Shown here one piece after another: positions 14,632 to 26,275 of a stretch of 29,523 nucleotides of DNA (the stretch's first letter is position 1; each line of letters opens with the position of its first letter). Both the position numbers and the translations under genes were made by a program. The notes under the pieces were generated by a model. It worked only from the letters and a program-made list of their open reading frames with translations. It did no database searches and was not told the DNA's origin. This stretch comes from a virus: UHGV virus genome UHGV-1542943, one strand, 5' to 3'.

Positions 14632-15479
14632 ATGTGCATGGGTAGCTCACCATCAGTGCCTGCAACACCAGAAGTTCAGGCAGCACCACAGGAGCAGGAT
14701 GCCGCCGTTGTTGATGCCCGCGACGAAGAAACACGTCGCCGTCGCGCTGCTGCTGGTCGTAGTTCTACGCTGCTTACCGTGCGGAATATACAATCAGTGT
14801 TTCTGGTGGTGCGTACTTCACCAGTAGTGATGTCGGCGCGCAACTACAGTTCCCTTATACCGGAACTGATCCTGATACTGGCGATGAGGTGTCAAAAGAA
14901 TTACGTTGCGACATTATTTCTGTAACCAGCAATACCGCTGTAGTGGTTCGTGCTAACAGGAACGTCCCGCCATCCCTCAGGAATGTGGCCACCACGAACT
15001 GGCAGATGGCGCGCCGGACATTTGGAGGCCTGTCTCATCTTGAAGGCCAGACCGTAAACATTCTCTCTGATGCGAACGTGGAACCACAGAAAGTAGTTTC
15101 CGGAGGTGCCGTCACGCTGGAATCTCCGGGGGCTGTAGTGCACATCGGCCTGCCAATAACTGCTGAATTCGAAACACTGGATATCAACATTAGCGGACAG
15201 GAAACGCTGCTGGACAAAAAACAGGTGATCCCGTCCGTTACTCTGGTTGTGAATGCCAGTCGCGGCATCTGGGCGACTACGCCCGGCGGTAAATGGTACG
15301 AATATCCACAGCGTGAATTCGAGTTCTACGATGATCCTGTTGATGATGCTACCGGAAAAGTAGAAGTGAAACTGGACAGTAACTGGGGCAAAAACGGACG
15401 TGTAAAAATCCGTCAGCTTGACCCGTTGCCGCTGTCTGTTCTTGCCGTTATTCCTCGCCTTACTGTTGGGGGATTCTGA
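14632..15479 (+). pseudogene. Virion structural gene with an apparent single-base frameshift near 14770-14780
   Basis: Frame starting at ATG 14632 (GGAG RBS) gives MCMGSSPSVPATPEVQ..AAAGRSSTLLT; a different frame is open from 14763 to the stop at 15477-15479 (..SGGAYFTSSDVGAQLQFPYTGTD..), and that stop overlaps the next gene's start. Confidence 0.4.
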
Positions 15480-15943: not shown

Positions 15944-16518
15944 TGTGCGATCCGGTTATTGCTGGTGGCGCAATGCTCGCCATGAGTGGCATTCAGGCAT
16001 ACACCCAGTACCAACAGGGAAAGTATGCCTCGAAGGTTGCAGAAGCGAACGCAGATATAGCCACAGCTCAGGCAAATGATGCAATAAACAGAGGTAACGC
16101 TGAAGCTGAGCAACGGCGCAGAGAGACCCGACAGCGGCTTGGTACACAGGCGGCGACAATGGGGGCTACCGGCGCTGATTTATCTACAGGTAACGCGCTG
16201 GATATATTTGGTGACACTGCTCAGTTTGGTGCTCTTGATTCGCTAACGACGGTGAATAACGCGCAACGCGAGGCTTACGGTTATCAGGTTCAGGCTGCCA
16301 ACTATAAAGCAGAAGCCAGTTTAGCCCGTAAACAGGGGAATGTGGGAGCAGCAACAACATTGCTCACTGCGCCTCTGAAGGCATACGGTGCGTACCAGAT
16401 GTTTGGTGGGACGTGGAGTCCGTTCTCTAAAGGAAGTACATCTAGTGGTGGGACGCCAATGTTATCTAACTCAGGTTTTATGAATTCTGACTCCCGATTC
16501 AAAATAGGAGGTTACTGA
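15943..16518 (+). CDS. Internal virion protein (T7 gp14-like)
   Basis: 191 aa beginning MCDPVIAGGAMLAMSGIQAYTQ..., similar in length and N-terminal pattern to T7 gp14 (MCWAAAIPIAISGAQAISG.., recalled from memory); Ala/Gln-rich. Confidence 0.5.
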   Translation: MCDPVIAGGAMLAMSGIQAYTQYQQGKYASKVAEANADIATAQANDAINRGNAEAEQRRRETRQRLGTQAATMGATGADLSTGNALDIFGDTAQFGALDSLTTVNNAQREAYGYQVQAANYKAEASLARKQGNVGAATTLLTAPLKAYGAYQMFGGTWSPFSKGSTSSGGTPMLSNSGFMNSDSRFKIGGY

Positions 16519-19265
16519 TGCCTGTTGTTCCTACTACATCCGGACGCCAGGTGCAAAGTCGTGGTGTGCAAACCGGTGGTTTTCAGATCTTCGATGTTCC
16601 TCAAGCAGGTCAGGTGCTGGCGAATGTCGCAGATCAGTATGCGGTGGCATATGGTGAAGCCAGGCAGAAAGCGAATGTTGCTATAGCCCAGGAGGCGTTA
16701 CTGCAATTTAACCAATTTGCAGATGACCAGATTAACAACCCTGAAAGTGGGCTGATTTCTAAACAGGGTAAAAACGCTCTTGGTCAGAGTGACGCTGTTA
16801 TGAAAAATATGCAGGAAAGGGCTCAGGCATTATTAGGCTCAATTCCTGAAAGTGAGGAAAGGAATAAATTATCCTTTCAACTCCAGCAGTCTATGCAGTC
16901 TTATTACAATCAGGCACGTCGATATGAAGTTGGGCAGTTTCAGCAATTCCAAGATCAAACGTATTTGTCAGGAAATGCATTGGCTGTCACTCAGTCTGCG
17001 GGGCTATATAGCGATAACCAAGCATTTGTCGATTTAGCCAAGCAGCGATTTGAATCTATTGATCAATACGCTGATGCGCATGGGCTTCCTGATGAGTGGC
17101 GTGTTCAGCAGAAAACTCAGCTCAAGGAACAAATGGGGCAGCAAGCATGGATAGGAAATATCGCTCAAAAATACAACGAGTTTCTTCAGGTTAATGGAGA
17201 GCCAGGGGATCTTGATGGTGTGAGTCGTGCAATATCACATGGTAATTCATTGGATGCTCGTGGTTTACGTAATAATAACCCTGGTAATATTGAAGCGAGC
17301 AAATCTAACCCGTGGGAAGGTCAGATCGGTAGCGATGGACGTTTTGCAACGTTTGCTACCCCTGAGCATGGAATCCGCGCGTTGGGTAAAAATATGTTGT
17401 CTTACCAGCGTCAAGGCTATGACACCGTTAGCGAGATTGTTAATCGCTATGCTCCGGTTAGTGATGGTAATAATACTGATGCTTATATTAGGGCATTGTG
17501 TGGTGAGCTTGGTGTTGGGGAGAATGATCAGCTTGATATCTCTAACCCAAAGACACTAGCTGCTTTATGTGCTGGGATTATTAAACACGAAAATGGCAGT
17601 ATGCCTTATAGCACCGAACAGCTTGAAACTGGTATCTCGGCAGCCCTTGGTCTAACTAACCTTGATTCACCTAAGCGTTATACGGGCAATGCGGCATTTG
17701 ATGCTATGAGCCCTCAAATGCAAATACAGGCATTGAGGCAGGCTAATGAGCTGAGAAATCAGTACCGCCAGCAGTATGCGGACCAGCTTAGCACCGTAGT
17801 TAAAGATGCATATTCAGCCCTTGATGAAGGATTGAAACCTGAGCAGTTACCTTCTGAGGACGATTTTATCCGGGCCAATGGTCCGCGCATTGGCGCTATG
17901 AAGTGGAAGGATATGCAGGCGCAGATACAATATGGAGGTGTCATTGGTGCCGCTAAAGACCTCACTCCAGAAGGACGACAAGACATTCTTGAACGTTTAC
18001 GTCCACAGGATCCAAACGCTCCTGGATTTGCAGCTAACCAGCAACGCTGGGAGAAAATGCAGGCCAAATTTAAAGAGATGGATAGGGAGTGGGAGATTCA
18101 GCAGGGAAGAAACAGGTTCGTGTCTTCAATGCAAAATAACTTCCCGCTGGACTCGAACGACAAAAACAATCAGGCAGCGGTAGACCGTTATTTCGCGCAG
18201 GATATCGCGCCTTCGTTTTCCATATCTGATCCGCAGAGCATCAATACACTGGTCACCGTCACAACTAAAAGCGGCATGATACCAACTCAGGTTAAAACAA
18301 TGCTTAACAGTGGAGCAACATCAAGAGATCCTGCGCTGGTTGTCCCGATGGCAAAATTCTACGGTCAGTTATTCGATAATAATCCGGCGGCAGCGGCAAC
18401 ACTTGATAAAAGTACGATGGCATTTTACGGCAAGGTTTACGATTATTCCCGCGCTGGCGTGCCGGAGGATAAGGCTGTTGATATGGCTTACAGCCAGGTG
18501 TTCCAACAGGATGACCGAATGAAACAGATGCTTTCCACTGCCATGCGAGACAAAAAATATGTCGCGGCGAGGGCAACTGCTGCACAAAATAACGCCAGCA
18601 GTCTGACTTCCTTTGGTTCGTGGTCTCCGGATATTACCGATCCAGGAAAATCAAATGCGGCCTATCAGCGAGATTACCAGACAATTTACGATGCTAACTT
18701 TGTACAGACAGGTGGCGATGCAGAACAGGCTGAGAAAATGACCAATGCCATGATCAGAACCACTTGGGGAGTTTCTACGGTTAATGGCAAAGCAGAGGTT
18801 ATGAAGTATGCACCTGAGGCATTGTACGGAGTAAATAATGGTGCTGGTAACTGGATACAGGGGCAGTGGGAGCAGGAAAAACGCGAGCTTAAATCAAAAT
18901 CCTTTGGCGGTCCTCGCAGTGATACGGACTTAATACTTGTTTCTGATGGCCTTACGGCAAGGGATAGGAGTTATGCTGTTATGGTTTTACAGCCTGACGC
19001 AAACGGAGCGATAGAACCGAGAAATTATATTGGAGAAAATGGTCTCCCTGTTCGTTTCAAGCCGGATCAGCTGACATCTCCAATGTACAGGCAAACCATT
19101 CAGTTCCAGCAACAGCGTGTTGATGAGGCTAGAGTGCGGAGAGAAGGCAATCCGCTGCCGCAGTTCAGCAATAAAGATGGATATACTCCTCCAGATCTGA
19201 CCAAACCATTCGGTTATGGTTCAGCCAATTACCTTCCGAGCAATATATACGCAGGGGGCAAATAA
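16518..19265 (+). CDS. Large internal virion / ejection protein (915 aa)
   Basis: Translationally coupled large protein in the gp15/gp16 position of podovirus structural operons; no catalytic motif confirmed. Confidence 0.55.
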   Translation: MPVVPTTSGRQVQSRGVQTGGFQIFDVPQAGQVLANVADQYAVAYGEARQKANVAIAQEALLQFNQFADDQINNPESGLISKQGKNALGQSDAVMKNMQERAQALLGSIPESEERNKLSFQLQQSMQSYYNQARRYEVGQFQQFQDQTYLSGNALAVTQSAGLYSDNQAFVDLAKQRFESIDQYADAHGLPDEWRVQQKTQLKEQMGQQAWIGNIAQKYNEFLQVNGEPGDLDGVSRAISHGNSLDARGLRNNNPGNIEASKSNPWEGQIGSDGRFATFATPEHGIRALGKNMLSYQRQGYDTVSEIVNRYAPVSDGNNTDAYIRALCGELGVGENDQLDISNPKTLAALCAGIIKHENGSMPYSTEQLETGISAALGLTNLDSPKRYTGNAAFDAMSPQMQIQALRQANELRNQYRQQYADQLSTVVKDAYSALDEGLKPEQLPSEDDFIRANGPRIGAMKWKDMQAQIQYGGVIGAAKDLTPEGRQDILERLRPQDPNAPGFAANQQRWEKMQAKFKEMDREWEIQQGRNRFVSSMQNNFPLDSNDKNNQAAVDRYFAQDIAPSFSISDPQSINTLVTVTTKSGMIPTQVKTMLNSGATSRDPALVVPMAKFYGQLFDNNPAAAATLDKSTMAFYGKVYDYSRAGVPEDKAVDMAYSQVFQQDDRMKQMLSTAMRDKKYVAARATAAQNNASSLTSFGSWSPDITDPGKSNAAYQRDYQTIYDANFVQTGGDAEQAEKMTNAMIRTTWGVSTVNGKAEVMKYAPEALYGVNNGAGNWIQGQWEQEKRELKSKSFGGPRSDTDLILVSDGLTARDRSYAVMVLQPDANGAIEPRNYIGENGLPVRFKPDQLTSPMYRQTIQFQQQRVDEARVRREGNPLPQFSNKDGYTPPDLTKPFGYGSANYLPSNIYAGGK

Positions 19266-22200
19266 TGCCGATATATGAACAGGATCCTAAAGAGTTGCTT
19301 GGCGAGGATATTCAGCAAATAGCAGCACCTGATGACAGTAATTTCTATATGGAAACACCTTCTTTGCTTTCTGCTGTGAACCCATTTACCAGTGATCAAC
19401 GCGTTCAAAGGTCTAGACAAGCAGCATTTCGTATAGATAACACGCTGGGTAGCTTTATTGCCAGTGCTCCTTTCAGTCAGTTTGACAGGGTTGAAGGATA
19501 TAACCCATTTGATAACGATGCAGCAGATATTAAAGGCTATGAAGATTTTGCAGATTCGTTTATCAACTCCGGTTCGCCTGAAGAAACAATGGCAATTAAA
19601 CATCGAATCGATCAGCAGAGAGCTGACATGGAATACAATTCAGGCTTGGGATTTGCTGGTACAGTCTCTTCTGTAGCAATGAGATTAGCAGATCCATTCA
19701 ATGCGATTTCTATGTTTATTCCGTTCGGCGCTGTCGTTCGTGGCGGTCGTATTGCAGAAACAGCCGGGCGTTTTGCCCTGGCGAATGCTGCTGGCAGTGT
19801 TGCTTCAGAGGCCGCATTACAGGCCACTCAGGAAGCTCGCTCACCGATGGAGAGCGTATCGAACGTTGTTGTTGATGCTCTCGTTGGTGGGATCCTTGGT
19901 GCTGGTGCACAGCTACTTGCTGGACCTGGCGCGCGCGAGGCAGTGGTTAACTCAGTAGGTAATCATTTGCGAGGTATGGATTCTCCTCAAAGCATTGGTG
20001 CAGCTCAGGTTTTCAATACCACACTCGATCAGGAACAGCTCGCTGGACTTGGACTTGCTAACAAAACGTTGAGTGTCACTCCTGCTGGCCGCTTGGCGCA
20101 ATCACCATCTCTTGTCTCCCGTCAGATTAACCAGCAGCTTGCCGAAAATAACTATTTCTTCGCCAAAAATGATGAGGGGTTGGCTACGTTTACGGCAGTC
20201 GAGACTAAGATTAAGCAATACGACGCCATGCTTTATAAGCAGATGGAAGCCACTCGTGATGCTTACCAGCAGTACAGCAAATCTGTTAGCGCCCGCGGCG
20301 TGAAGAGGATGAACTTTATTGATTTCAATGAAGCTGTTGGCATGGCTATGCGCCGTGGTGATCAGAGTGATATTCCTGAGGTTTCACAAGCAGCCGCCAG
20401 AATCCGCCCCATTTTCGAGACCACAAAAGCCCGTATGCAGGAACTGGGGATCCTTCCTAAGGATATCGATGTCGTGACGGCGAAAAGTTATCTTCCCCGC
20501 ATTTATAAGTTCGATAAGATACTTTCCGACCGCACTGAATTCAGAGGGCGAATTGCCAACTGGATACAAGGGATTAGTGCCAAAGGTGCTGACAAAGCAG
20601 GTCAGCGAATTGAAAGGATAAATTCATTGCTAAAAACTGCAGAGGAATCGGCACCGCACGCTGATGCTCTCGCTAGTGAAATCGCTGAAGCGGAGAAATG
20701 GTCTGGTAAAAAAATTCTACTCATGGAAGAACTGGATAAACGAAATAAGCTTATATCTCAGGAGACTGACACACAGGCGCGTCTTACAAGAATAGAAAAA
20801 GAGTTGGCCGAGACTTCATCAGAAAAACTTCAGGCAAGAATGATGAAAGAAAGCTCTGACCTTAAAACACGCCTTGATGATATAGCGCAGGCAAAGAGTG
20901 AGCTTCCTGTCTATCAGCGCCATATGGAGTTGTTGGATAATCCACGGAAATATCGTTCTGAGCTTCGCCGACTGCAAAAACGGGCAAATTCAACCACAAG
21001 GCTGAATGCAAGCCGCGAACGAGCACTGAAGCAGATGGAGCCTCTATCCCGAGAGGAAGCAGAGGACGCTGCTGACGAGATCGTGAATAAAATAATAGGC
21101 GCACCTTCCGGGCTTGTACCAGCCGATATTATCCCAGAGAGACTCGTTGGTCGGGCTGGTTTCACTAAAAGCAGAACGCTGCTTATTCCTGATGAGCGTA
21201 TAGAAGATTTTCTTGAATCAGATGTTAACTACATCATGGAAAGTTATCTCCGGCAGGTGGCACCAGAAATTGAGCTGACTGCGCAGTTTGGCCGTAAAGA
21301 TATGGGGGAGCAAATCCGTCAGGTTAGTGAGGAATATACCCGGCTAATAAAAGAGGCTAAAACACCTAAACGACGTGCAGTTCTTGAGAAGCAACGGGAG
21401 GCTGATATTAGGGATATTACGGCTATGCGTGATCGACTGCTTGGTACTTACGGTGCACCTCAAGATCCACGCAGTTTCTTTGTTCGTGCCGGGCGAGTTG
21501 CTAGGAATATTAACTTCCTCCGTTTGCTTGGTGGAATGACCGTCTCCGCTGCAACTGATCTGATGCGACCGATGATGCAGCATGGCCTGAGAAAATCTCT
21601 CGGACCAATGGTAAGCATGCTTAAAAATATGGACTCAGTGAAGATTGCAACCAGGGATTTGCGAGAAATGGCCGTTGGGCTTGATTATGTCCTGTCTACG
21701 CGTACAAAGGCTATAGCGGATCTTACTGACCCATATAGCCGGAGAAGCGCCGCTGAGCGAGGCCTGAACTGGATGACGCAGAAATTCGGTAACTGGACGC
21801 TGATGAATCAGTGGAACAGCGCACTTAAATCATGGTCCGGGATGATAGTGCAGTCGAGGATACTTGACGCGGCTCGCCAAGTTTCTGCTGGTGGCACGCT
21901 CTCCAAAAGTGAAATGCGGAAGATGGCACAGGTCGGCATCAATGAAGATGTTCTGCGCCGAATCGGGGAGCAATTCGGGAAGCACGGAGAGGATATGGAC
22001 GGGCTGTTAACCGGGCATAGTCATCTGTGGGATGACCGTTTCGCTAGAGAGATTTTCCAGTCTGCAGTGCTGAAAGATGTAGACTCAGTGATTGTAACGC
22101 CTGGCGTAGGTGATACACCGCTGTTTTTTAGTAAAGAAGGCTGGAAGATGATCACGCAGTTCAAAACGTTTATCTTCGCACAGCATAACAGGGTGCTAGT

Positions 22201-22654
22201 ATCTGGTATCCAGCAGGGCGATGCTGCATTCTATCTTGGTGCGCTTGGCACGATTGCGCTTGGCTCAATGGTCTATATGATGAAACAGAAGTTAAGCGGT
22301 CGCGATATCGACTACAGCTGGAATAACCTTGTGAAAGAGGGGATCGACCGGGGCGGAATGCTTGGCTGGCTCTCTGAGCCGCTGAATACCGTTGAGAACA
22401 TAAGCGGCGGTAGGTTTGGTCTTGGCGCGATGTTTGGTGCGCCTCCGGTATCAAGGTTTCAGAGTCGTAATGCTATTGGTGCTTTACTTGGTCCTACCTT
22501 TGATCTTGGCGGTGATGCCGCGACGGTTGCGAATGGTGTACTTAACGGAGAATTTGACAGCCAGCAAACCCACGCGGTCCGTAAAATGCTACCTTTTCAG
22601 AACCTGTGGGCAATATCACCGTTACTAAATAAAGTTGAAGAGCAGATGAAATAG
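19265..22654 (+). CDS. Large internal virion / ejection protein (1129 aa)
   Basis: Second giant coupled ORF; coiled-coil-rich middle region (..KELAETSSEKLQARMMKESSDLKTRLDDIAQAKSEL..); hydrophobic Gly/Ala-rich C-terminal segments. Confidence 0.55.
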   Translation: MPIYEQDPKELLGEDIQQIAAPDDSNFYMETPSLLSAVNPFTSDQRVQRSRQAAFRIDNTLGSFIASAPFSQFDRVEGYNPFDNDAADIKGYEDFADSFINSGSPEETMAIKHRIDQQRADMEYNSGLGFAGTVSSVAMRLADPFNAISMFIPFGAVVRGGRIAETAGRFALANAAGSVASEAALQATQEARSPMESVSNVVVDALVGGILGAGAQLLAGPGAREAVVNSVGNHLRGMDSPQSIGAAQVFNTTLDQEQLAGLGLANKTLSVTPAGRLAQSPSLVSRQINQQLAENNYFFAKNDEGLATFTAVETKIKQYDAMLYKQMEATRDAYQQYSKSVSARGVKRMNFIDFNEAVGMAMRRGDQSDIPEVSQAAARIRPIFETTKARMQELGILPKDIDVVTAKSYLPRIYKFDKILSDRTEFRGRIANWIQGISAKGADKAGQRIERINSLLKTAEESAPHADALASEIAEAEKWSGKKILLMEELDKRNKLISQETDTQARLTRIEKELAETSSEKLQARMMKESSDLKTRLDDIAQAKSELPVYQRHMELLDNPRKYRSELRRLQKRANSTTRLNASRERALKQMEPLSREEAEDAADEIVNKIIGAPSGLVPADIIPERLVGRAGFTKSRTLLIPDERIEDFLESDVNYIMESYLRQVAPEIELTAQFGRKDMGEQIRQVSEEYTRLIKEAKTPKRRAVLEKQREADIRDITAMRDRLLGTYGAPQDPRSFFVRAGRVARNINFLRLLGGMTVSAATDLMRPMMQHGLRKSLGPMVSMLKNMDSVKIATRDLREMAVGLDYVLSTRTKAIADLTDPYSRRSAAERGLNWMTQKFGNWTLMNQWNSALKSWSGMIVQSRILDAARQVSAGGTLSKSEMRKMAQVGINEDVLRRIGEQFGKHGEDMDGLLTGHSHLWDDRFAREIFQSAVLKDVDSVIVTPGVGDTPLFFSKEGWKMITQFKTFIFAQHNRVLVSGIQQGDAAFYLGALGTIALGSMVYMMKQKLSGRDIDYSWNNLVKEGIDRGGMLGWLSEPLNTVENISGGRFGLGAMFGAPPVSRFQSRNAIGALLGPTFDLGGDAATVANGVLNGEFDSQQTHAVRKMLPFQNLWAISPLLNKVEEQMK

Positions 22655-22655
22655 G

Positions 22656-23507
22656 ATGAAAAAAATAAATTTGTTTTTTGGCATAGTGCTTTCAATAGTC
22701 TCTGTAAATCCTACAGCTGCCAGTTCATTGCAATGCAATAAGGATAACTTTGATGCATGCAAAACGTGTGAACAATTATCAAAGGCTATCGACTTAAAAG
22801 AACCTAATCGTGGCGATTACTATAGAGGGGCTTTATGGAATGGGCTTTACGCCTCTTATGTAATTAATTGCCCTGTGGTTGCTGAGAAGTTACTGAGCCA
22901 TGGTGCTATACCATCATATGGCGGATATATGGGGTCTATGGGGGCGGTTCTGACAGGAAAATGGCCTCATAACAATGAATCAATAAATCTTTCATGGGCA
23001 GATTTGCTTATAAAACATGGATTTGATGTTAATAGGCATACGGGGAATTATAAATCAGCTACTGAAGTATGGGCTATAGATAAAAAACAGATTGAATATA
23101 AGTCAGTTTTTGACAAGTTAATTCAATCCAGCGAAGTAAAACCACTCGATCCTTCAAGAAATTTAGAATGGTGTGCGTCTGAAGGGTATCGCTCAGTTGT
23201 CGTTTATTCCCTTAACTCATGTATAGAAAATGCTATAAAACGTTTGGATGATGGTGTTTCTTCAGCGTCTGATATTTCATCAGCAGCCGTAAATTCCTGT
23301 ACTAGCGATGTAGAAAATTTCAATAAGCATTTGGTATGCAAAGCAGCTGTTAAAGAAAACTCTGATAAAGAGAGAAGCAACGTTTACCAGTTATTAACCA
23401 GTGATAGTCAAATGAATAAAAATGTTATTGATATGCTGAAGGAAAGAAATATTGAAACGGTTCTTGAATTTAGAGCTGAAAATCGATCAGCGAAAACTGC
23501 ACAGTGA
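22656..23507 (+). CDS. AT-rich cargo gene encoding a secreted/periplasmic Cys-containing protein (283 aa)
   Basis: Sec-type signal peptide MKKINLFFGIVLSIVSVNPTAAS; ATG 2 nt after the stop of the 1129-aa gene; markedly AT-rich; followed by a terminator. Confidence 0.6.
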   Translation: MKKINLFFGIVLSIVSVNPTAASSLQCNKDNFDACKTCEQLSKAIDLKEPNRGDYYRGALWNGLYASYVINCPVVAEKLLSHGAIPSYGGYMGSMGAVLTGKWPHNNESINLSWADLLIKHGFDVNRHTGNYKSATEVWAIDKKQIEYKSVFDKLIQSSEVKPLDPSRNLEWCASEGYRSVVVYSLNSCIENAIKRLDDGVSSASDISSAAVNSCTSDVENFNKHLVCKAAVKENSDKERSNVYQLLTSDSQMNKNVIDMLKERNIETVLEFRAENRSAKTAQ

Positions 23508-23510
23508 TCA

Positions 23511-23538
23511 AACAGGCCGCTTTCGCGGCCTTGTTTTT
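23511..23538 (+). terminator. Rho-independent terminator ending the late operon
   Basis: GGCCGC-tttc-GCGGCC followed by TTGTTTTT. Confidence 0.7.
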
Positions 23539-23575
23539 AACGAATGCCACCGCCACCCGGGCGGGAATCCGCAGA

Positions 23576-23600
23576 CACAAAAAAGCCCGCAACGCGGGCT
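23576..23600 (-). terminator. Rho-independent terminator for the minus-strand toxin operon
   Basis: GCCCGC-gttg-GCGGGC followed by TTTTTT on the minus strand, immediately after the stop at 23600-23602. Confidence 0.65.
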
Positions 23601-24137
23601 TATTCCTTCCATTTATCAGAAAAAAGATCTTCTTCTAAAGGCATTGGTTCTGTTTTTGTTTTCTGAAAGAATTGATAACTGATAGTGATTGCTGCCTCTT
23701 TAAACTCTTCTTGCTCAGTTATGTTGTGGGCATCTGCGTCAACAAAAAACATAACCAGCGCATCACGATTGTGATTTACCGAATAAACTAAAAAGCAATC
23801 ACTTGTTGGTATGCATTTTACTTGCACAGACGCTATATGCATCCCAAGATGATTTTTTACCAGTGTGTTTTTTATCACTATCTTCTGGAATATAGTCTTG
23901 GTTATCGACATGAGTATGCCTGACATTTAGTTTAAGCATTTCTGTCGGACGAGCAAATGCAGCATCTTTACCAAGAGATGGATGGTATCCCGTTTTCCAA
24001 TACTGGGTAAAGGCATCAGATACTTTCTTCAGCTCAAGATCAGATGCACAAAGGGCCGAGAAATTTTGCGTATGCAATACTCGACCCTTATATCTGACAA
24101 TTTGATTTTTATCATTCTGCGACGCAGACGAACTCAT
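23600..24137 (-). pseudogene. YafO-like toxin gene split across two overlapping frames (23799-24137 and 23600-23926)
   Basis: Frame A (MSSSASQ...LGKDAAFARPTEMLKLNVRHTHV) and frame B (..SDCFLVYSVNHNRDALVMFFV..) each resemble consecutive parts of E. coli YafO as recalled from memory (..FGRDALY...VAHIHL..., ..AHLVYCQGAFDEQAWLL..). The 128-nt overlap contains two T6/A6 homopolymer tracts (23853-23858, 23868-23873). Confidence 0.4.
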
Positions 24138-24291
24138 AATTTTCCTTATTGTTACGAGAATCAAAGAAAGCGCGGGATACGCGACTTGCGTGATCTTTTG
24201 TCATAGTAACTTTTACGTACTCTACGCTTCCATTGAAAGAACGTCTTGCGGCAGCTTGCGCTCTACGCATCTGCAATTTTTCGTTTCGCAT
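24112..24291 (-). CDS. Small basic protein (59 aa) upstream of and overlapping the toxin-like gene; candidate antitoxin
   Basis: MRNEKLQMRRAQAAARRSFNGSVEYVKVTMTKDHASRVSRAFF...; its stop overlaps the toxin start by 26 nt, and the toxin ATG has an AAGGAAAA RBS. Not similar to YafN by eye. Confidence 0.4.
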   Translation of the reverse strand: MRNEKLQMRRAQAAARRSFNGSVEYVKVTMTKDHASRVSRAFFDSRNNKENYEFVCVAE

Positions 24292-24351
24292 GACATTACC
24301 TCATATCTCATAAGTTCATTACACGGATTAATAAAAATGAAACCAATCCGT

Positions 24352-24366
24352 TTACCCTTGAGGTAA
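24352..24366. promoter_or_regulatory. Operator TTACCCTTGAGGTAA (perfect)
   Basis: Between the antirepressor gene end and the toxin operon start. Confidence 0.6.
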
Positions 24367-24438
24367 TAGTACGCTATTCACCCACAGTCTGCAATCTGTA
24401 CAGAATTATTTAAAGGCACATCCCTGTGCCGCCGCCCG

Positions 24439-25149
24439 TCAGAAGAACCCAGCCTTGTCGTTGATGTACTCCGCGTGCGTCTGGATATCACGCAGGCATT
24501 TGCTCACACCGACGATGTAGCAGAACATGGTGGTCAGTTCCGCCGCCGCGCCCGATACGTCATGCCCGTCTTCCTGTAACTGGTTCAGCAAATTCATCAG
24601 CAGTGAGTTCTCCGTCAGGCCGAGAACACCAGACGGCGAGTGAATCAGGCTGCGGTAGCCGGGCTTCAGTGGGGCACTGTAGGTTTTGTTCTCTATCTTC
24701 ATCGCCTGCATCACTGCTGATGCTGTGGCGTTTGCAACCTGGTCGGCAACCATCTTTATGCGTTCTTCCTGCGGGAGCGAGTTTTTAATGTAACTTCCGG
24801 TGCGGCGGATCTGAGGAAGAACCTCACCTGTAACCCATTTACGAAAGCGGTAGGGGATAGTGCCTGGTGTCACTGCGTCGCGACAGCGGAGGATCAGTGT
24901 GTAGAGGCCTGACTCGGAGATGATGTTGATCTCTTTTACTCGGCTGTCAAAAATTGCACGATGTTCATGCCCTATGTTGAACATAGACCTTTCATCATCA
25001 TCCAGTTTTTCAAGTGCTTGGGTGACGTTTTGGATACGCAGCGCACTACAAACGTCTTGGGCTACAAACCATGGTTGGCCATCGATAATGATGGAACGGA
25101 TAGGGTTAACAGATTCAAATTTGAAGATGGCAGTTTGAGCATTAGCCAT
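24439..25149 (-). CDS. Bro-N domain antirepressor (Ant-like)
   Basis: N-terminal ..FKFESVNPIRSIIIDGQPWFVAQDVCSALRIQNVTQALEKLDDDE is a classic Bro-N signature; C-terminal antirepressor-type domain; ATG at 25149 with a GGAG RBS. Confidence 0.8.
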   Translation of the reverse strand: MANAQTAIFKFESVNPIRSIIIDGQPWFVAQDVCSALRIQNVTQALEKLDDDERSMFNIGHEHRAIFDSRVKEINIISESGLYTLILRCRDAVTPGTIPYRFRKWVTGEVLPQIRRTGSYIKNSLPQEERIKMVADQVANATASAVMQAMKIENKTYSAPLKPGYRSLIHSPSGVLGLTENSLLMNLLNQLQEDGHDVSGAAAELTTMFCYIVGVSKCLRDIQTHAEYINDKAGFF

Positions 25150-25546: not shown

Positions 25547-26275
25547 ATGGAAGTTTTCTGGATAGTTGTTGGTGTGGTTGCGGTGATTATTTACGTTATC
25601 AACCAGAACAAGACTAAGATCTCTGATCGTACGGTCGTTAATCATAACAAAACGATAAAGACCGAAGATGGGGAGATAACGATTAATCGTACACAGGTGA
25701 TAGAACACACCTCTACTCAGTTTCAAAAAACTGGAGGTAATGCGCCTAATATTTCCGCACCTCCTGCTTATGATAGTGCGGTAATCCAGACATATTATAA
25801 ACAGCAGGAGTTAGCAAAAGAGAGGCAACTGATTCAGCCAAAGCCGTTTACAGCTGAGCTTCCACCTGGAGTGTCAACGCGTCCGGCATATCATGGAAGA
25901 TTCCCTGGTGATGACATATCGTCTCAGTCATCTAAAAAAGCACCTCAGGCAGTATCAGAGCCAGCAAGAATACCTTCTGTATCGCCGCCAAAAGAAGAAT
26001 CAGCTAACAGAGTTTCAAGTGGTAGCAAGCAGTGCTTGCGATGCAGAATAAACCTACCATATGAAAAATTCAGGAAATCGTCAAAAAATCCAGATGGATT
26101 GACTAAGTGGTGTGCAAGGTGTCTCGATGGCCCAAAGAATACACGCCATATGAAGTGGTGCCCAATTTGTAATGTCCGCAGAAAACGAACCAGCTTTTAC
26201 CCTAATAATCAAAATGCGGACGGATTAATGGCATGGTGCAAAACGTGCTGGGATGAGCACAAAGCGAAACGATAG
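25547..26275 (+). CDS. Membrane-anchored protein with two C-terminal C4 zinc-ribbon-like units
   Basis: N-terminal TM helix MEVFWIVVGVVAVIIYVI, low-complexity linker, then CLRC..(PDGLTKW)CARC..(KW)CPIC..(DGLMAW)CKTC; GAGG RBS. Confidence 0.55.
   Translation: MEVFWIVVGVVAVIIYVINQNKTKISDRTVVNHNKTIKTEDGEITINRTQVIEHTSTQFQKTGGNAPNISAPPAYDSAVIQTYYKQQELAKERQLIQPKPFTAELPPGVSTRPAYHGRFPGDDISSQSSKKAPQAVSEPARIPSVSPPKEESANRVSSGSKQCLRCRINLPYEKFRKSSKNPDGLTKWCARCLDGPKNTRHMKWCPICNVRRKRTSFYPNNQNADGLMAWCKTCWDEHKAKR

What the first reader, a model, noticed from the sequence alone, without database searches (positions are those of the whole stretch)
22656..23507. Secreted AT-rich moron fused onto the end of the ejection-protein operon
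A 283-aa protein with a Sec signal peptide and scattered cysteines starts 2 nt after the 1129-aa gene and precedes a strong terminator. Its AT-richness marks it as acquired. A periplasmic product from a late or lysogenic transcript could act in superinfection exclusion, receptor modification or host interaction; no family was recognised.
Basis: partly seen in the sequence, partly recalled or inferred. Interest (0 to 1): 0.55.

Follow-up and report, generated by a model that had tools for sequence, protein, structure and literature searches.

The report
Secreted phage protein, likely blocks superinfection
A prophage gene at the end of the DNA-ejection operon encodes a secreted, ankyrin-like protein that probably neutralises the cell-wall-cutting enzyme injected by related phages, which would be a second, unrelated example of the trick known from phage T4 Spackle.

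Summary
ORF 22656-23507 (+) encodes 283 aa. It starts one base after the stop of the 1129-aa ejection-protein gene and ends at a terminator. It has 36.6% GC against 48% next door. It carries a signal peptide and eight invariant cysteines, and dN/dS is about 0.17.

It occupies a cargo slot. Relatives hold unrelated AT-rich cassettes there, or none. Yet homologues in five or more enterobacterial genera always sit in this exact position and diverge along with their neighbours. No promoter of its own was found.

Stand-alone N-domain genes sit beside genes for an Enc34-type muralytic domain in four independent arrangements. The window's 915-aa ejection protein carries that same domain.

Best reading (about 0.45): a periplasmic inhibitor of the ejected muralytic domain. 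That would give Spackle-like superinfection exclusion. No binding, export or expression experiment exists. Receptor modification is disfavoured, because tailspikes vary among carriers.

The parts
22656..23507 (+). CDS of the 283-aa secreted two-domain protein (PHROG 6118; no Pfam family)
22656..22724 (+). Predicted Sec signal peptide (residues 1-23); not a lipoprotein signal
   Evidence: It is the only hydrophobic segment. It is conserved in all homologues, with small residues before the first invariant Cys. pLDDT is below 50. No lipobox is present.
22725..23150 (+). N-domain (residues 24-165): ankyrin-repeat-like, with 4 invariant Cys (C27, C35, C38, C72). It also occurs as stand-alone secreted proteins of 155-200 aa.
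23151..23504 (+). C-domain (residues 166-283): helical bundle with 4 invariant Cys and the motif LDDGxSxASDI. It also occurs as stand-alone secreted proteins of 110-155 aa.
   Evidence: pLDDT is about 90-96. Stand-alone relatives. One stand-alone copy lies in a prophage next to a lipoprotein gene.
23514..23541 (+). Intrinsic terminator that ends the rightward late/ejection operon. It forms the right boundary of the cargo slot.
23583..23601 (-). Convergent terminator-like hairpin that ends the leftward accessory region
19265..22654 (+). 1129-aa internal virion (ejection) protein. Its stop codon is the left boundary of the slot. A homologue of it lies directly upstream in all 34 loci checked.
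16518..19265 (+). 915-aa internal virion (ejection) protein
17256..17717 (+). Enc34-type (PHA02564) muralytic domain of the 915-aa protein (residues about 247-400; RNNNPGNI ... HENG). This is the proposed target of the N-domain.
   Evidence: PDB matches are 9vvp_L at E=2e-36 and 7q47_A 'Endolysin' at E=4e-16. Muralytic activity of the family was shown for Enc34 (PMC8943055).

Best explanation
The gene encodes a soluble periplasmic protein. It is made together with the late/ejection operon, by read-through and translational coupling. Its ankyrin-like N-domain binds and neutralises the Enc34-type (PHA02564) muralytic domain that phages of this kind carry on their 915-aa ejection protein.

The ejection protein of the resident phage is packaged in the cytoplasm, while the 283-aa protein is exported. 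The two can therefore meet only when another virion ejects its proteins into the periplasm of a cell that already holds the inhibitor. The expected result is a block to cell-wall penetration and DNA delivery by superinfecting relatives, and protection from lysis from without. This is what T4 Spackle does to the gp5 tail lysozyme, achieved here with an unrelated fold.

Shown: the gene, its position, its composition, its conservation, the two-domain make-up, the ankyrin-like fold of the model, and the repeated neighbourhood link between the N-domain and the muralytic domain.

Inferred: export, binding, inhibition, timing of expression, and the exclusion phenotype. The role of the C-domain is unknown.
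For: 1. Likely location. It has a signal peptide and no other hydrophobic segment. Eight invariant cysteines fall as 4 per domain. Stand-alone relatives of both domains all carry signal peptides.

3. Link to the muralytic domain.
- The 915-aa ejection protein has an Enc34-type domain with the catalytic Glu motif HENG (PMC8943055).
- In L084, a muralytic+DUF3892 gene overlaps a stand-alone N-domain gene by 4 nt.
- In L083 and L085 the two genes are adjacent and convergent.
- In L139 the N-domain gene is followed at once by a muralytic gene.
- In L082, a prophage of a different tail type, the tape-measure protein ends in the muralytic domain and an N-domain gene closes the tail cluster.
- Supporting calls: 93-97, 103, 104, 107, 109, 122.
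- That makes four independent arrangements, plus the enterobacterial phage lineage itself.

4. Immunity logic. The N-domain proteins have signal peptides. The small muralytic partner read in full (L084) shows no signal peptide; L085's starts the same way, and L139's start is uncertain.

5. Across six diverged phage lineages, N-domain identity follows muralytic-domain identity. In L115 the values are 74% and 69%, while the other ejection-protein segments are 35-46%. Pearson r is 0.95, but n=6 and the points are not independent.

6. The gene is tied to the ejection genes, not to the receptor-binding or immunity modules. It directly follows the 1129-aa homologue in 34 of 34 loci, while tailspike C-domains and Bro-N genes vary.

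7. Precedents from the literature.
- T4 Spackle is a periplasmic helical protein with a disulfide that inhibits the gp5 lysozyme (PMC7677548).
- P22 sieA lies between the last ejection gene and the tailspike gene and targets the ejection proteins (PMC10883804).
- Bd3460 is a periplasmic ankyrin protein that inhibits peptidoglycan endopeptidases (PMC4686830).
- An Enc34-like domain in the T6SS effector Tae5 comes with immunity proteins that carry signal peptides (PMC13340143).
Against: No binding, inhibition, export or exclusion data exist.

The neighbourhood link is partial. About 7 of 11 stand-alone N-domain lineages with usable flanks have no muralytic gene nearby. These include Burkholderiaceae MAGs, a clade next to cytochrome c genes, L137, L140 and L147. 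In the reverse direction, only 2 of the 80 best muralytic-bearing viral loci carry the N- or C-domain.

No promoter was found upstream. Expression from a repressed prophage is therefore doubtful. Exclusion set up only late in infection has a less obvious benefit than early (Spackle) or lysogenic (SieA) expression.

The C-domain remains unexplained.

The window's prophage is itself defective, so the gene here may be a passenger.
Confidence: 0.45

Rival explanations
1. The biochemistry is the same, inhibition of Enc34-type muralytic domains in the periplasm, but the biological target is bacterial weapons and not phages. On this view it is an orphan immunity gene carried by the prophage. It would protect the host from T6SS-delivered or predator-delivered muralytic effectors.
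For: The Enc34-like domain occurs in the T6SS effector Tae5, which has periplasmic immunity proteins (PMC13340143). The closest stand-alone N-domains are in predatory Bacteriovoracia, Pseudobdellovibrionaceae and Oligoflexia MAGs, next to small muralytic proteins that look like effector-immunity pairs. Many N-domain genes are orphans. The gene stays intact in a defective prophage.
Against: The gene is fixed directly behind the ejection genes in 34 of 34 loci, and its N-domain tracks the phage's own muralytic domain. No promoter for lysogenic expression was found. Only about 2% of complete E. coli genomes carry it.
Confidence: 0.15
2. It is a periplasmic accessory protein whose function has nothing to do with the muralytic domain. 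It could be a lysis-timing regulator (antiholin-like or spanin-modulating), a binder of a host periplasmic or outer-membrane component used as a secondary receptor, or a host-interaction or virulence factor.
For: It appears to be co-transcribed late. Ankyrin-like scaffolds bind many kinds of partner. Most N-domain relatives lack a muralytic neighbour. The C-domain has its own independent family, seen next to a lipoprotein gene in another prophage. Carriers include ExPEC/APEC strains such as IHE3034 and APEC O18.
Against: It is not in the lysis cassette, which lies beyond the tailspike gene. Tailspike receptor-binding domains vary among carriers, which argues against a receptor-specific role. 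This view gives no positive explanation for the repeated adjacency to the muralytic domain.
Confidence: 0.25
3. It is itself part of the virion or ejection machinery, or a dedicated assembly or activation factor for the muralytic ejection protein. An example of the second case is E. cloacae Tli, which both activates and neutralises its lipase.
For: It is the last gene of the ejection operon and is translationally coupled to the 1129-aa gene. Synteny is conserved and it diverges with its neighbours. Tli shows that an ankyrin partner can also activate its enzyme (PMC11470151).
Against: It has a cleavable-type signal peptide and 8 invariant cysteines, which fits oxidative folding outside the cytoplasm where virions assemble. 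Close relatives replace the gene with unrelated cassettes: two Klebsiella phage records whose 1129-aa protein is 91.5% identical, and viral contigs L149/L150 whose muralytic domain is 99% identical. So it is dispensable.
Confidence: 0.05

Closest known systems
T4 Spackle (gp61.3), periplasmic inhibitor of the gp5 tail lysozyme
   Same: It is phage-encoded, exported with a cleaved signal, all-helical and disulfide-bonded. Its target is a muralytic enzyme carried by the virion, and the outcome is superinfection exclusion and resistance to lysis from without (PMC7677548). This is the proposed mode of action here.
   Different: There is no sequence relationship. No Spackle chain was found with the family profile against PDB sequences at E<=10. 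Spackle is a 75-aa helical bundle, whereas this is a 260-aa ankyrin-like domain plus a helical domain. The target enzymes are unrelated too: T4-type lysozyme there, Enc34/PHA02564 domain here. Spackle is an early gene, while this one appears to be transcribed late.
P22 SieA
   Same: The genomic position is the same: between the last ejection-protein gene and the tailspike gene of a short-tailed temperate phage. It is present in only some relatives, and it acts on the ejection proteins (PMC10883804).
   Different: [quoted passage not shown] The protein here has no membrane segment beyond its signal peptide and no detectable promoter. There is no homology; it falls in a different PHROG.
Bd3460 of Bdellovibrio bacteriovorus (ankyrin self-protection protein)
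   Same: It is a small periplasmic ankyrin-repeat protein with a signal peptide. It is encoded next to a peptidoglycan hydrolase and blocks that enzyme by forming a complex with it (PMC4686830). The stand-alone N-domain genes in predatory-bacterium MAGs have this same layout.
   Different: Bd3460 has six canonical repeats and inhibits DD-endopeptidases. The N-domain has about 2-3 degenerate repeats stapled by disulfides, gives no Pfam Ank hit and no PDB sequence hit. Its partner is a glycosidase-type domain.
Periplasmic ankyrin immunity proteins of T6SS effectors (e.g. E. cloacae Tli for Tle6 lipases)
   Same: These are exported ankyrin solenoids that cup and neutralise an incoming enzyme (PMC11470151).
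   Different: Tli is a lipoprotein-type immunity protein for a phospholipase. No sequence relationship was detected, and the setting here is a phage, not a T6SS locus.
Phage morons (extra genes between conserved genes, with deviant composition)
   Same: It is an extra gene in a slot that varies among relatives. It is AT-rich and followed by a terminator.
   Different: It has no promoter of its own. It has also resided in the same slot for a long time across genera.

Membership tests
Ankyrin repeat proteins (Pfam Ank clan) | Significant match to the Ank profile HMMs | tested here: not met
   No Pfam hit at E<=0.1. Only E>=1.2 matches to DARPin chains with the family profile.
Ankyrin repeat proteins (Pfam Ank clan) | Stacked helix-turn-helix repeats with TPLH-like and LLxxGAxxN motifs | tested here: inconclusive
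T4 Spackle family | Sequence homology to gp61.3 | tested here: not met
   No Spackle chain among the PDB sequence hits at E<=10. The protein falls in PHROG 6118, function unknown.
T4 Spackle family | Binds and inhibits a virion muralytic enzyme in the periplasm | not testable with these tools
   Supported only by gene-neighbourhood links.
P22 SieA-type exclusion proteins | Inner-membrane protein with transmembrane segments | tested here: not met
   The only hydrophobic stretch is residues 1-20.
P22 SieA-type exclusion proteins | Gene lies between the last ejection-protein gene and the tailspike gene | tested here: met
   PMC10883804
P22 SieA-type exclusion proteins | Expressed from the prophage | tested here: inconclusive
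   No sigma-70-like site was found in 22000-24600 or upstream in L004 and L045. This was a consensus scan only.
Moron | Present in some relatives and absent or replaced in others, at a fixed junction | tested here: met
Moron | Base composition deviates from the flanks | tested here: met
   GC is 0.366 against 0.483. The same pattern holds in Morganella (0.354 vs 0.521) and Serratia (0.404 vs 0.535).
Moron | Own promoter and own terminator | tested here: not met
   The terminator is present but no promoter-like site was found.
Periplasmic immunity proteins of peptidoglycan-hydrolase effectors | Signal peptide on the immunity protein, and the gene adjacent to its cognate enzyme gene | tested here: met
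   This holds for stand-alone N-domain relatives in L083, L084, L085 and L139. In the window, the enzyme domain lies in the same operon 3.4 kb upstream.
Lipoprotein exclusion factors (Cor, Llp type) | Lipobox before the first Cys | tested here: not met
   The residues before the Cys are S-L-Q-C, L-A-K-C or A-G-Q-C in the homologues.
Virion ejection proteins | Present in all close relatives | tested here: not met
   The gene is absent from the Klebsiella phages whose 1129-aa protein is 91.5% identical. About 14 of 120 E. coli genomes that share this 1129-aa allele also lack it.

The most novel reading that the evidence does not exclude
The N-domain defines a new, widespread family of disulfide-stapled, ankyrin-like periplasmic immunity proteins specific for Enc34-type (PHA02564) muralytic domains. 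Temperate phages of at least two tail types would use it to exclude relatives by disarming their ejected wall-cutting enzyme. Predatory bacteria would use it as self-protection against their own muralytic effectors. That would make it only the second known phage strategy of this kind after T4 Spackle, and an independent invention.
Probability: 0.4. Interest if true: 0.72.

Novelty: new variant of a known kind. Interest (0 to 1): 0.6.

Why it matters
Superinfection exclusion that targets the ejected cell-wall hydrolase has been worked out for only one system, T4 Spackle. A second, structurally unrelated inhibitor would show that this step of infection is a recurrent target. This one is found in temperate podophages of E. 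coli, Klebsiella, Serratia, Morganella and Providencia-like hosts.

It would also give a protein inhibitor for the Enc34/PHA02564 class of muralytic enzymes, which are being considered as enzybiotics.

It would affect phage therapy and typing. About 2% of complete E. coli genomes carry the gene, including ExPEC/APEC strains, and they might resist related therapeutic podophages such as EC.W1-9.

Finally, it would assign a function to two secreted domain families that currently have no Pfam family. It would also point to likely effector-immunity pairs in predatory bacteria.

Tried and rejected
- Pfam, NCBIfam and PADLOC scans of the protein gave nothing. Pfam scans of 20 stand-alone relatives of the two domains found no family matching either domain.
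- PDB sequence search with the family profile gave only insignificant hits.
- BFVD Foldseek gave only weak ankyrin hits from eukaryotic viruses, E>=0.03.
- The afdb50 library was not available.
- An Ivy-like 'KPH' inhibitory loop was considered for KWPHN. It was rejected because WPH aligns with the structural TPLH motif of ankyrin repeats.
- A lipoprotein reading was rejected because there is no lipobox.
- Receptor modification was rejected because tailspikes vary among carriers.
- The Burkholderiaceae and cytochrome-c-linked contexts of distant N-domain relatives gave no lead.
- Contexts for stand-alone C-domains were mostly short contigs. The one usable case is a prophage with an adjacent lipoprotein gene.
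- The pattern scan with the broad N-domain alignment failed.
- Reverse test: muralytic-bearing viral loci rarely carry the N-domain, 2 of 80. The pairing is therefore optional.
- Looking for Stenotrophomonas Tai5a among family members failed. All clusters examined are environmental and unnamed.
- P0121 could not be looked up.
- The paper on phage EC.W1-9 contains no virion proteomics.
- A linker-fused complex prediction was not attempted, because the tool returns no interface measure.

Full report
**Observation.** The ORF is at 22656-23507 on the + strand and encodes 283 aa. The 1129-aa gene ends with TAG at 22654, one base follows, and then the ATG. A hairpin at 23514-23531 with a T-run follows the stop. 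The stretch 23512-23575 is shared with phiV10, where it is annotated as a terminator, and with other phages. The gene has 36.6% GC (GC3 0.28), against 48.3% (GC3 0.44) for the 1129-aa gene. The N-terminus has the layout of a Sec signal peptide and is the only hydrophobic segment. There is no lipobox. All eight cysteines are invariant in 15 homologues. Pairwise dN/dS is 0.17, against 0.05-0.06 for the 1129-aa gene, so this is a real gene under purifying selection.

**Setting.** The window is a prophage of the TL-2011b / phiV10 (Uetakevirus-like) type. It has an integrase, early genes, terminase, internal virion proteins of 154, 191, 915 and 1129 aa, then this gene. A leftward accessory region with a Bro-N antirepressor follows, and then a tailspike gene. 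Phage EC.W1-9, a sewage podophage, carries the same gene at 99% identity. The gene is in 106 of 5426 complete E. coli genomes, including IHE3034 and APEC O18. The matching 3' end of the 1129-aa gene is in 120 genomes.

**A cargo slot.** Close relatives differ exactly here.
- The Klebsiella phages ST512-KPC3phi13.3 and Kp4865-1 have a 1129-aa protein 91.5% identical, followed by an unrelated 204-aa protein with no signal peptide (phrog_3383).
- E. coli 13081 has a two-gene cassette: a 146-aa secreted protein on the other strand and a 149-aa protein.
- phiV10 has a 46-aa membrane protein. TL-2011b has only reverse-strand genes.
- Homology breaks at the stop codon of the 1129-aa gene and resumes at the terminator.
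- All three alternative cassettes measured have 37-38% GC against 48-52% flanks.

**Yet an old resident.** Full-length homologues occur in Klebsiella (84-89%), Serratia (60%), and Morganella and Providencia (39-42%). In all 34 loci checked, the gene directly follows the 1129-aa homologue, and L076 shows the same layout. Its divergence parallels that of its neighbours. It is AT-rich in each lineage: 35.4% against 52.1% in Morganella, and 40.4% against 53.5% in Serratia. Synonymous divergence is out of step with the flanks in both directions, which suggests the cassette is exchanged within the slot. No sigma-70-like site lies upstream in the window, in L004 or in L045. Transcription is therefore most likely read-through from the late operon.

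**Not tied to the receptor.** Carriers with a protein at least 99% identical have unrelated tailspike receptor-binding domains, including a K1 endosialidase in IHE3034. The Bro-N gene downstream also varies, from 72 to 100% identity.

**The protein.** There is no Pfam, NCBIfam or PADLOC match. PHROG 6118 matches full-length but has no known function. An exhaustive profile search found 68 representatives and showed that the protein is a fusion of two domains.
- Residues about 5-155 also occur as stand-alone secreted proteins of 155-200 aa with four conserved cysteines.
- Residues about 160-272 also occur as stand-alone secreted proteins of 110-155 aa with the motif LDDGxSPASDIA.
- The AF2 model (mean pLDDT 77, pTM 0.63) is all-helical. 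The C-domain is very confident and the N-domain is moderate.
- The conserved WPH and LL..GA..N motifs match the ankyrin TPLH and LL..GA..N motifs (read from the sequence).

**The key lead.** The 915-aa ejection protein carries an Enc34-type (PHA02564) muralytic domain at residues about 247-400. It matches PDB 9vvp_L at E=2e-36 and 7q47_A at E=4e-16, and the HENG glutamate motif is conserved. Muralytic activity of this family was shown for the Enc34 endolysin (PMC8943055).

The closest stand-alone N-domain genes (41-52% identity) lie next to genes for this same domain:
- In a Bacteriovoracia MAG (L084), a 219-aa muralytic+DUF3892 gene overlaps the N-domain gene by 4 nt.
- In L083 and L085 the two genes are adjacent and convergent.
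- In L139 the N-domain gene is followed directly by a muralytic gene.
- In L082, a prophage with a tape measure and a baseplate hub, the tape-measure protein ends in the muralytic domain and an N-domain gene closes the tail cluster.
- Supporting calls: 93-98, 103, 104, 107, 109, 111, 122.

The N-domain proteins have signal peptides. The muralytic partner in L084 shows none, and L085's begins the same way. This is the layout of an effector and its immunity protein.

Across six diverged phage lineages, N-domain identity follows muralytic-domain identity. In L115 they are 74% and 69%, while the other ejection-protein segments are 35-46%. With n=6 and non-independent points, this is weak support only.

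**Limits of the lead.** About 7 of 11 stand-alone lineages with usable flanks have no muralytic gene nearby. Only 2 of the 80 best muralytic-bearing viral loci carry the N- or C-domain. The pairing is recurrent but optional.

A rough estimate of chance supports the link. If a genome has about one such gene among thousands, immediate adjacency in three independent arrangements by chance is very unlikely. This is an order-of-magnitude argument and not a computed test.

**Mechanism proposed.** The protein is exported to the periplasm. The resident phage's own ejection protein stays in the cytoplasm until it is packaged. The two therefore meet only when another virion ejects into a cell that already holds the inhibitor. 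The N-domain would then bind the muralytic domain and block wall penetration.

This works like T4 Spackle (PMC7677548). It sits where P22 sieA sits (PMC10883804). It uses the kind of scaffold seen in Bd3460 (PMC4686830) and Tli (PMC11470151). An Enc34-like domain with immunity proteins that carry signal peptides is also reported for the T6SS effector Tae5 (PMC13340143). Whether Tai5a belongs to the N-domain family could not be tested.

Every step from export onward is inference. The apparent late timing of expression and the unexplained C-domain are the main weaknesses.

**Verdict.** The most likely function is a Spackle-like periplasmic inhibitor of the ejected muralytic domain, with confidence of about 0.45. 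It is a new variant of a known kind of system, built from two previously undescribed secreted domains.

Noticed in passing
window 13090-14890 (junction near 14779/14780): The prophage in this window is defective. Compared with intact relatives (E. coli F719, EC.W1-9, IHE3034), about 7 kb is missing. The missing stretch carried the portal, protease, major capsid, cement and staple proteins, and the N-terminal three quarters of the 823-aa tail protein. Only the C-terminal 196 aa of that protein remain (14889-15479). The ejection genes and the 283-aa gene are intact.
   Followed up: yes
window 13087-14204 (-): A second low-GC island (38-42% GC) lies between the terminase and the place where the portal gene should be. 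It holds a reverse-strand 296-aa coiled-coil-like ORF (phrog_4780, function unknown) and a tRNA-Arg(TCT) at 14128-14204. Many E. coli prophages share this island.
   Followed up: partly
window 23600-24164 (-): Two overlapping ORFs (108 and 121 aa) match the C- and N-terminal halves of the same family (phrog_1651). This is the YafO-family toxin gene of TL-2011b, so the gene appears to be frameshifted here.
   Followed up: partly
window 22000-24600: No sigma-70-like promoter match was found on either strand, where 5.9 +/- 2.7 are expected from shuffles, even though the region is AT-rich.
   Followed up: no
L080 2156-3058 (E. coli 13081); L046 4329-4943 (Klebsiella phage ST512-KPC3phi13.3): Other cargo occupies the same slot. 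One is a 146-aa secreted cysteine-containing protein on the opposite strand together with a 149-aa protein. The other is a 204-aa cytoplasmic protein (phrog_3383). All are AT-rich and of unknown function.
   Followed up: partly
L084 5267-6402; L083 5842-7183; L085 4283-5498; L139 9932-11025: Small Enc34-type muralytic proteins sit next to a secreted ankyrin-like protein in predatory-bacterium MAGs and a soil contig. Those in L083-L085 carry a C-terminal DUF3892 and show no signal peptide at the N-termini read. They look like undescribed effector-immunity or self-protection pairs.
   Followed up: partly
L049 4600-5360: A stand-alone C-domain gene (119 aa) in an unrelated prophage is translationally coupled to a 133-aa lipoprotein gene. 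The pair lies beside a 699-aa gene (no family match) and the lysis genes.
   Followed up: no
L090 3076-4053; L091 248-1113: A distant clade of the N-domain family lacks the WPH motif. In two different contexts it lies directly after a cytochrome c gene.
   Followed up: no
window 22656-23507 compared with L038 and L034: Synonymous divergence of the cassette disagrees with its flanks in both directions. Against L038, dS is 0.40 for the cassette and 1.0-1.5 for the flanks. Against L034, it is 0.115 for the cassette and 0.01-0.04 for the flanks. This suggests the cassette recombines separately from the ejection genes.
   Followed up: partly
window 25547-26275 (+): A 242-aa protein (phrog_6762) sits just upstream of the tailspike gene. 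Its C-terminal matches resemble endonuclease VII, HNH and Lar-like restriction-alleviation families.
   Followed up: no
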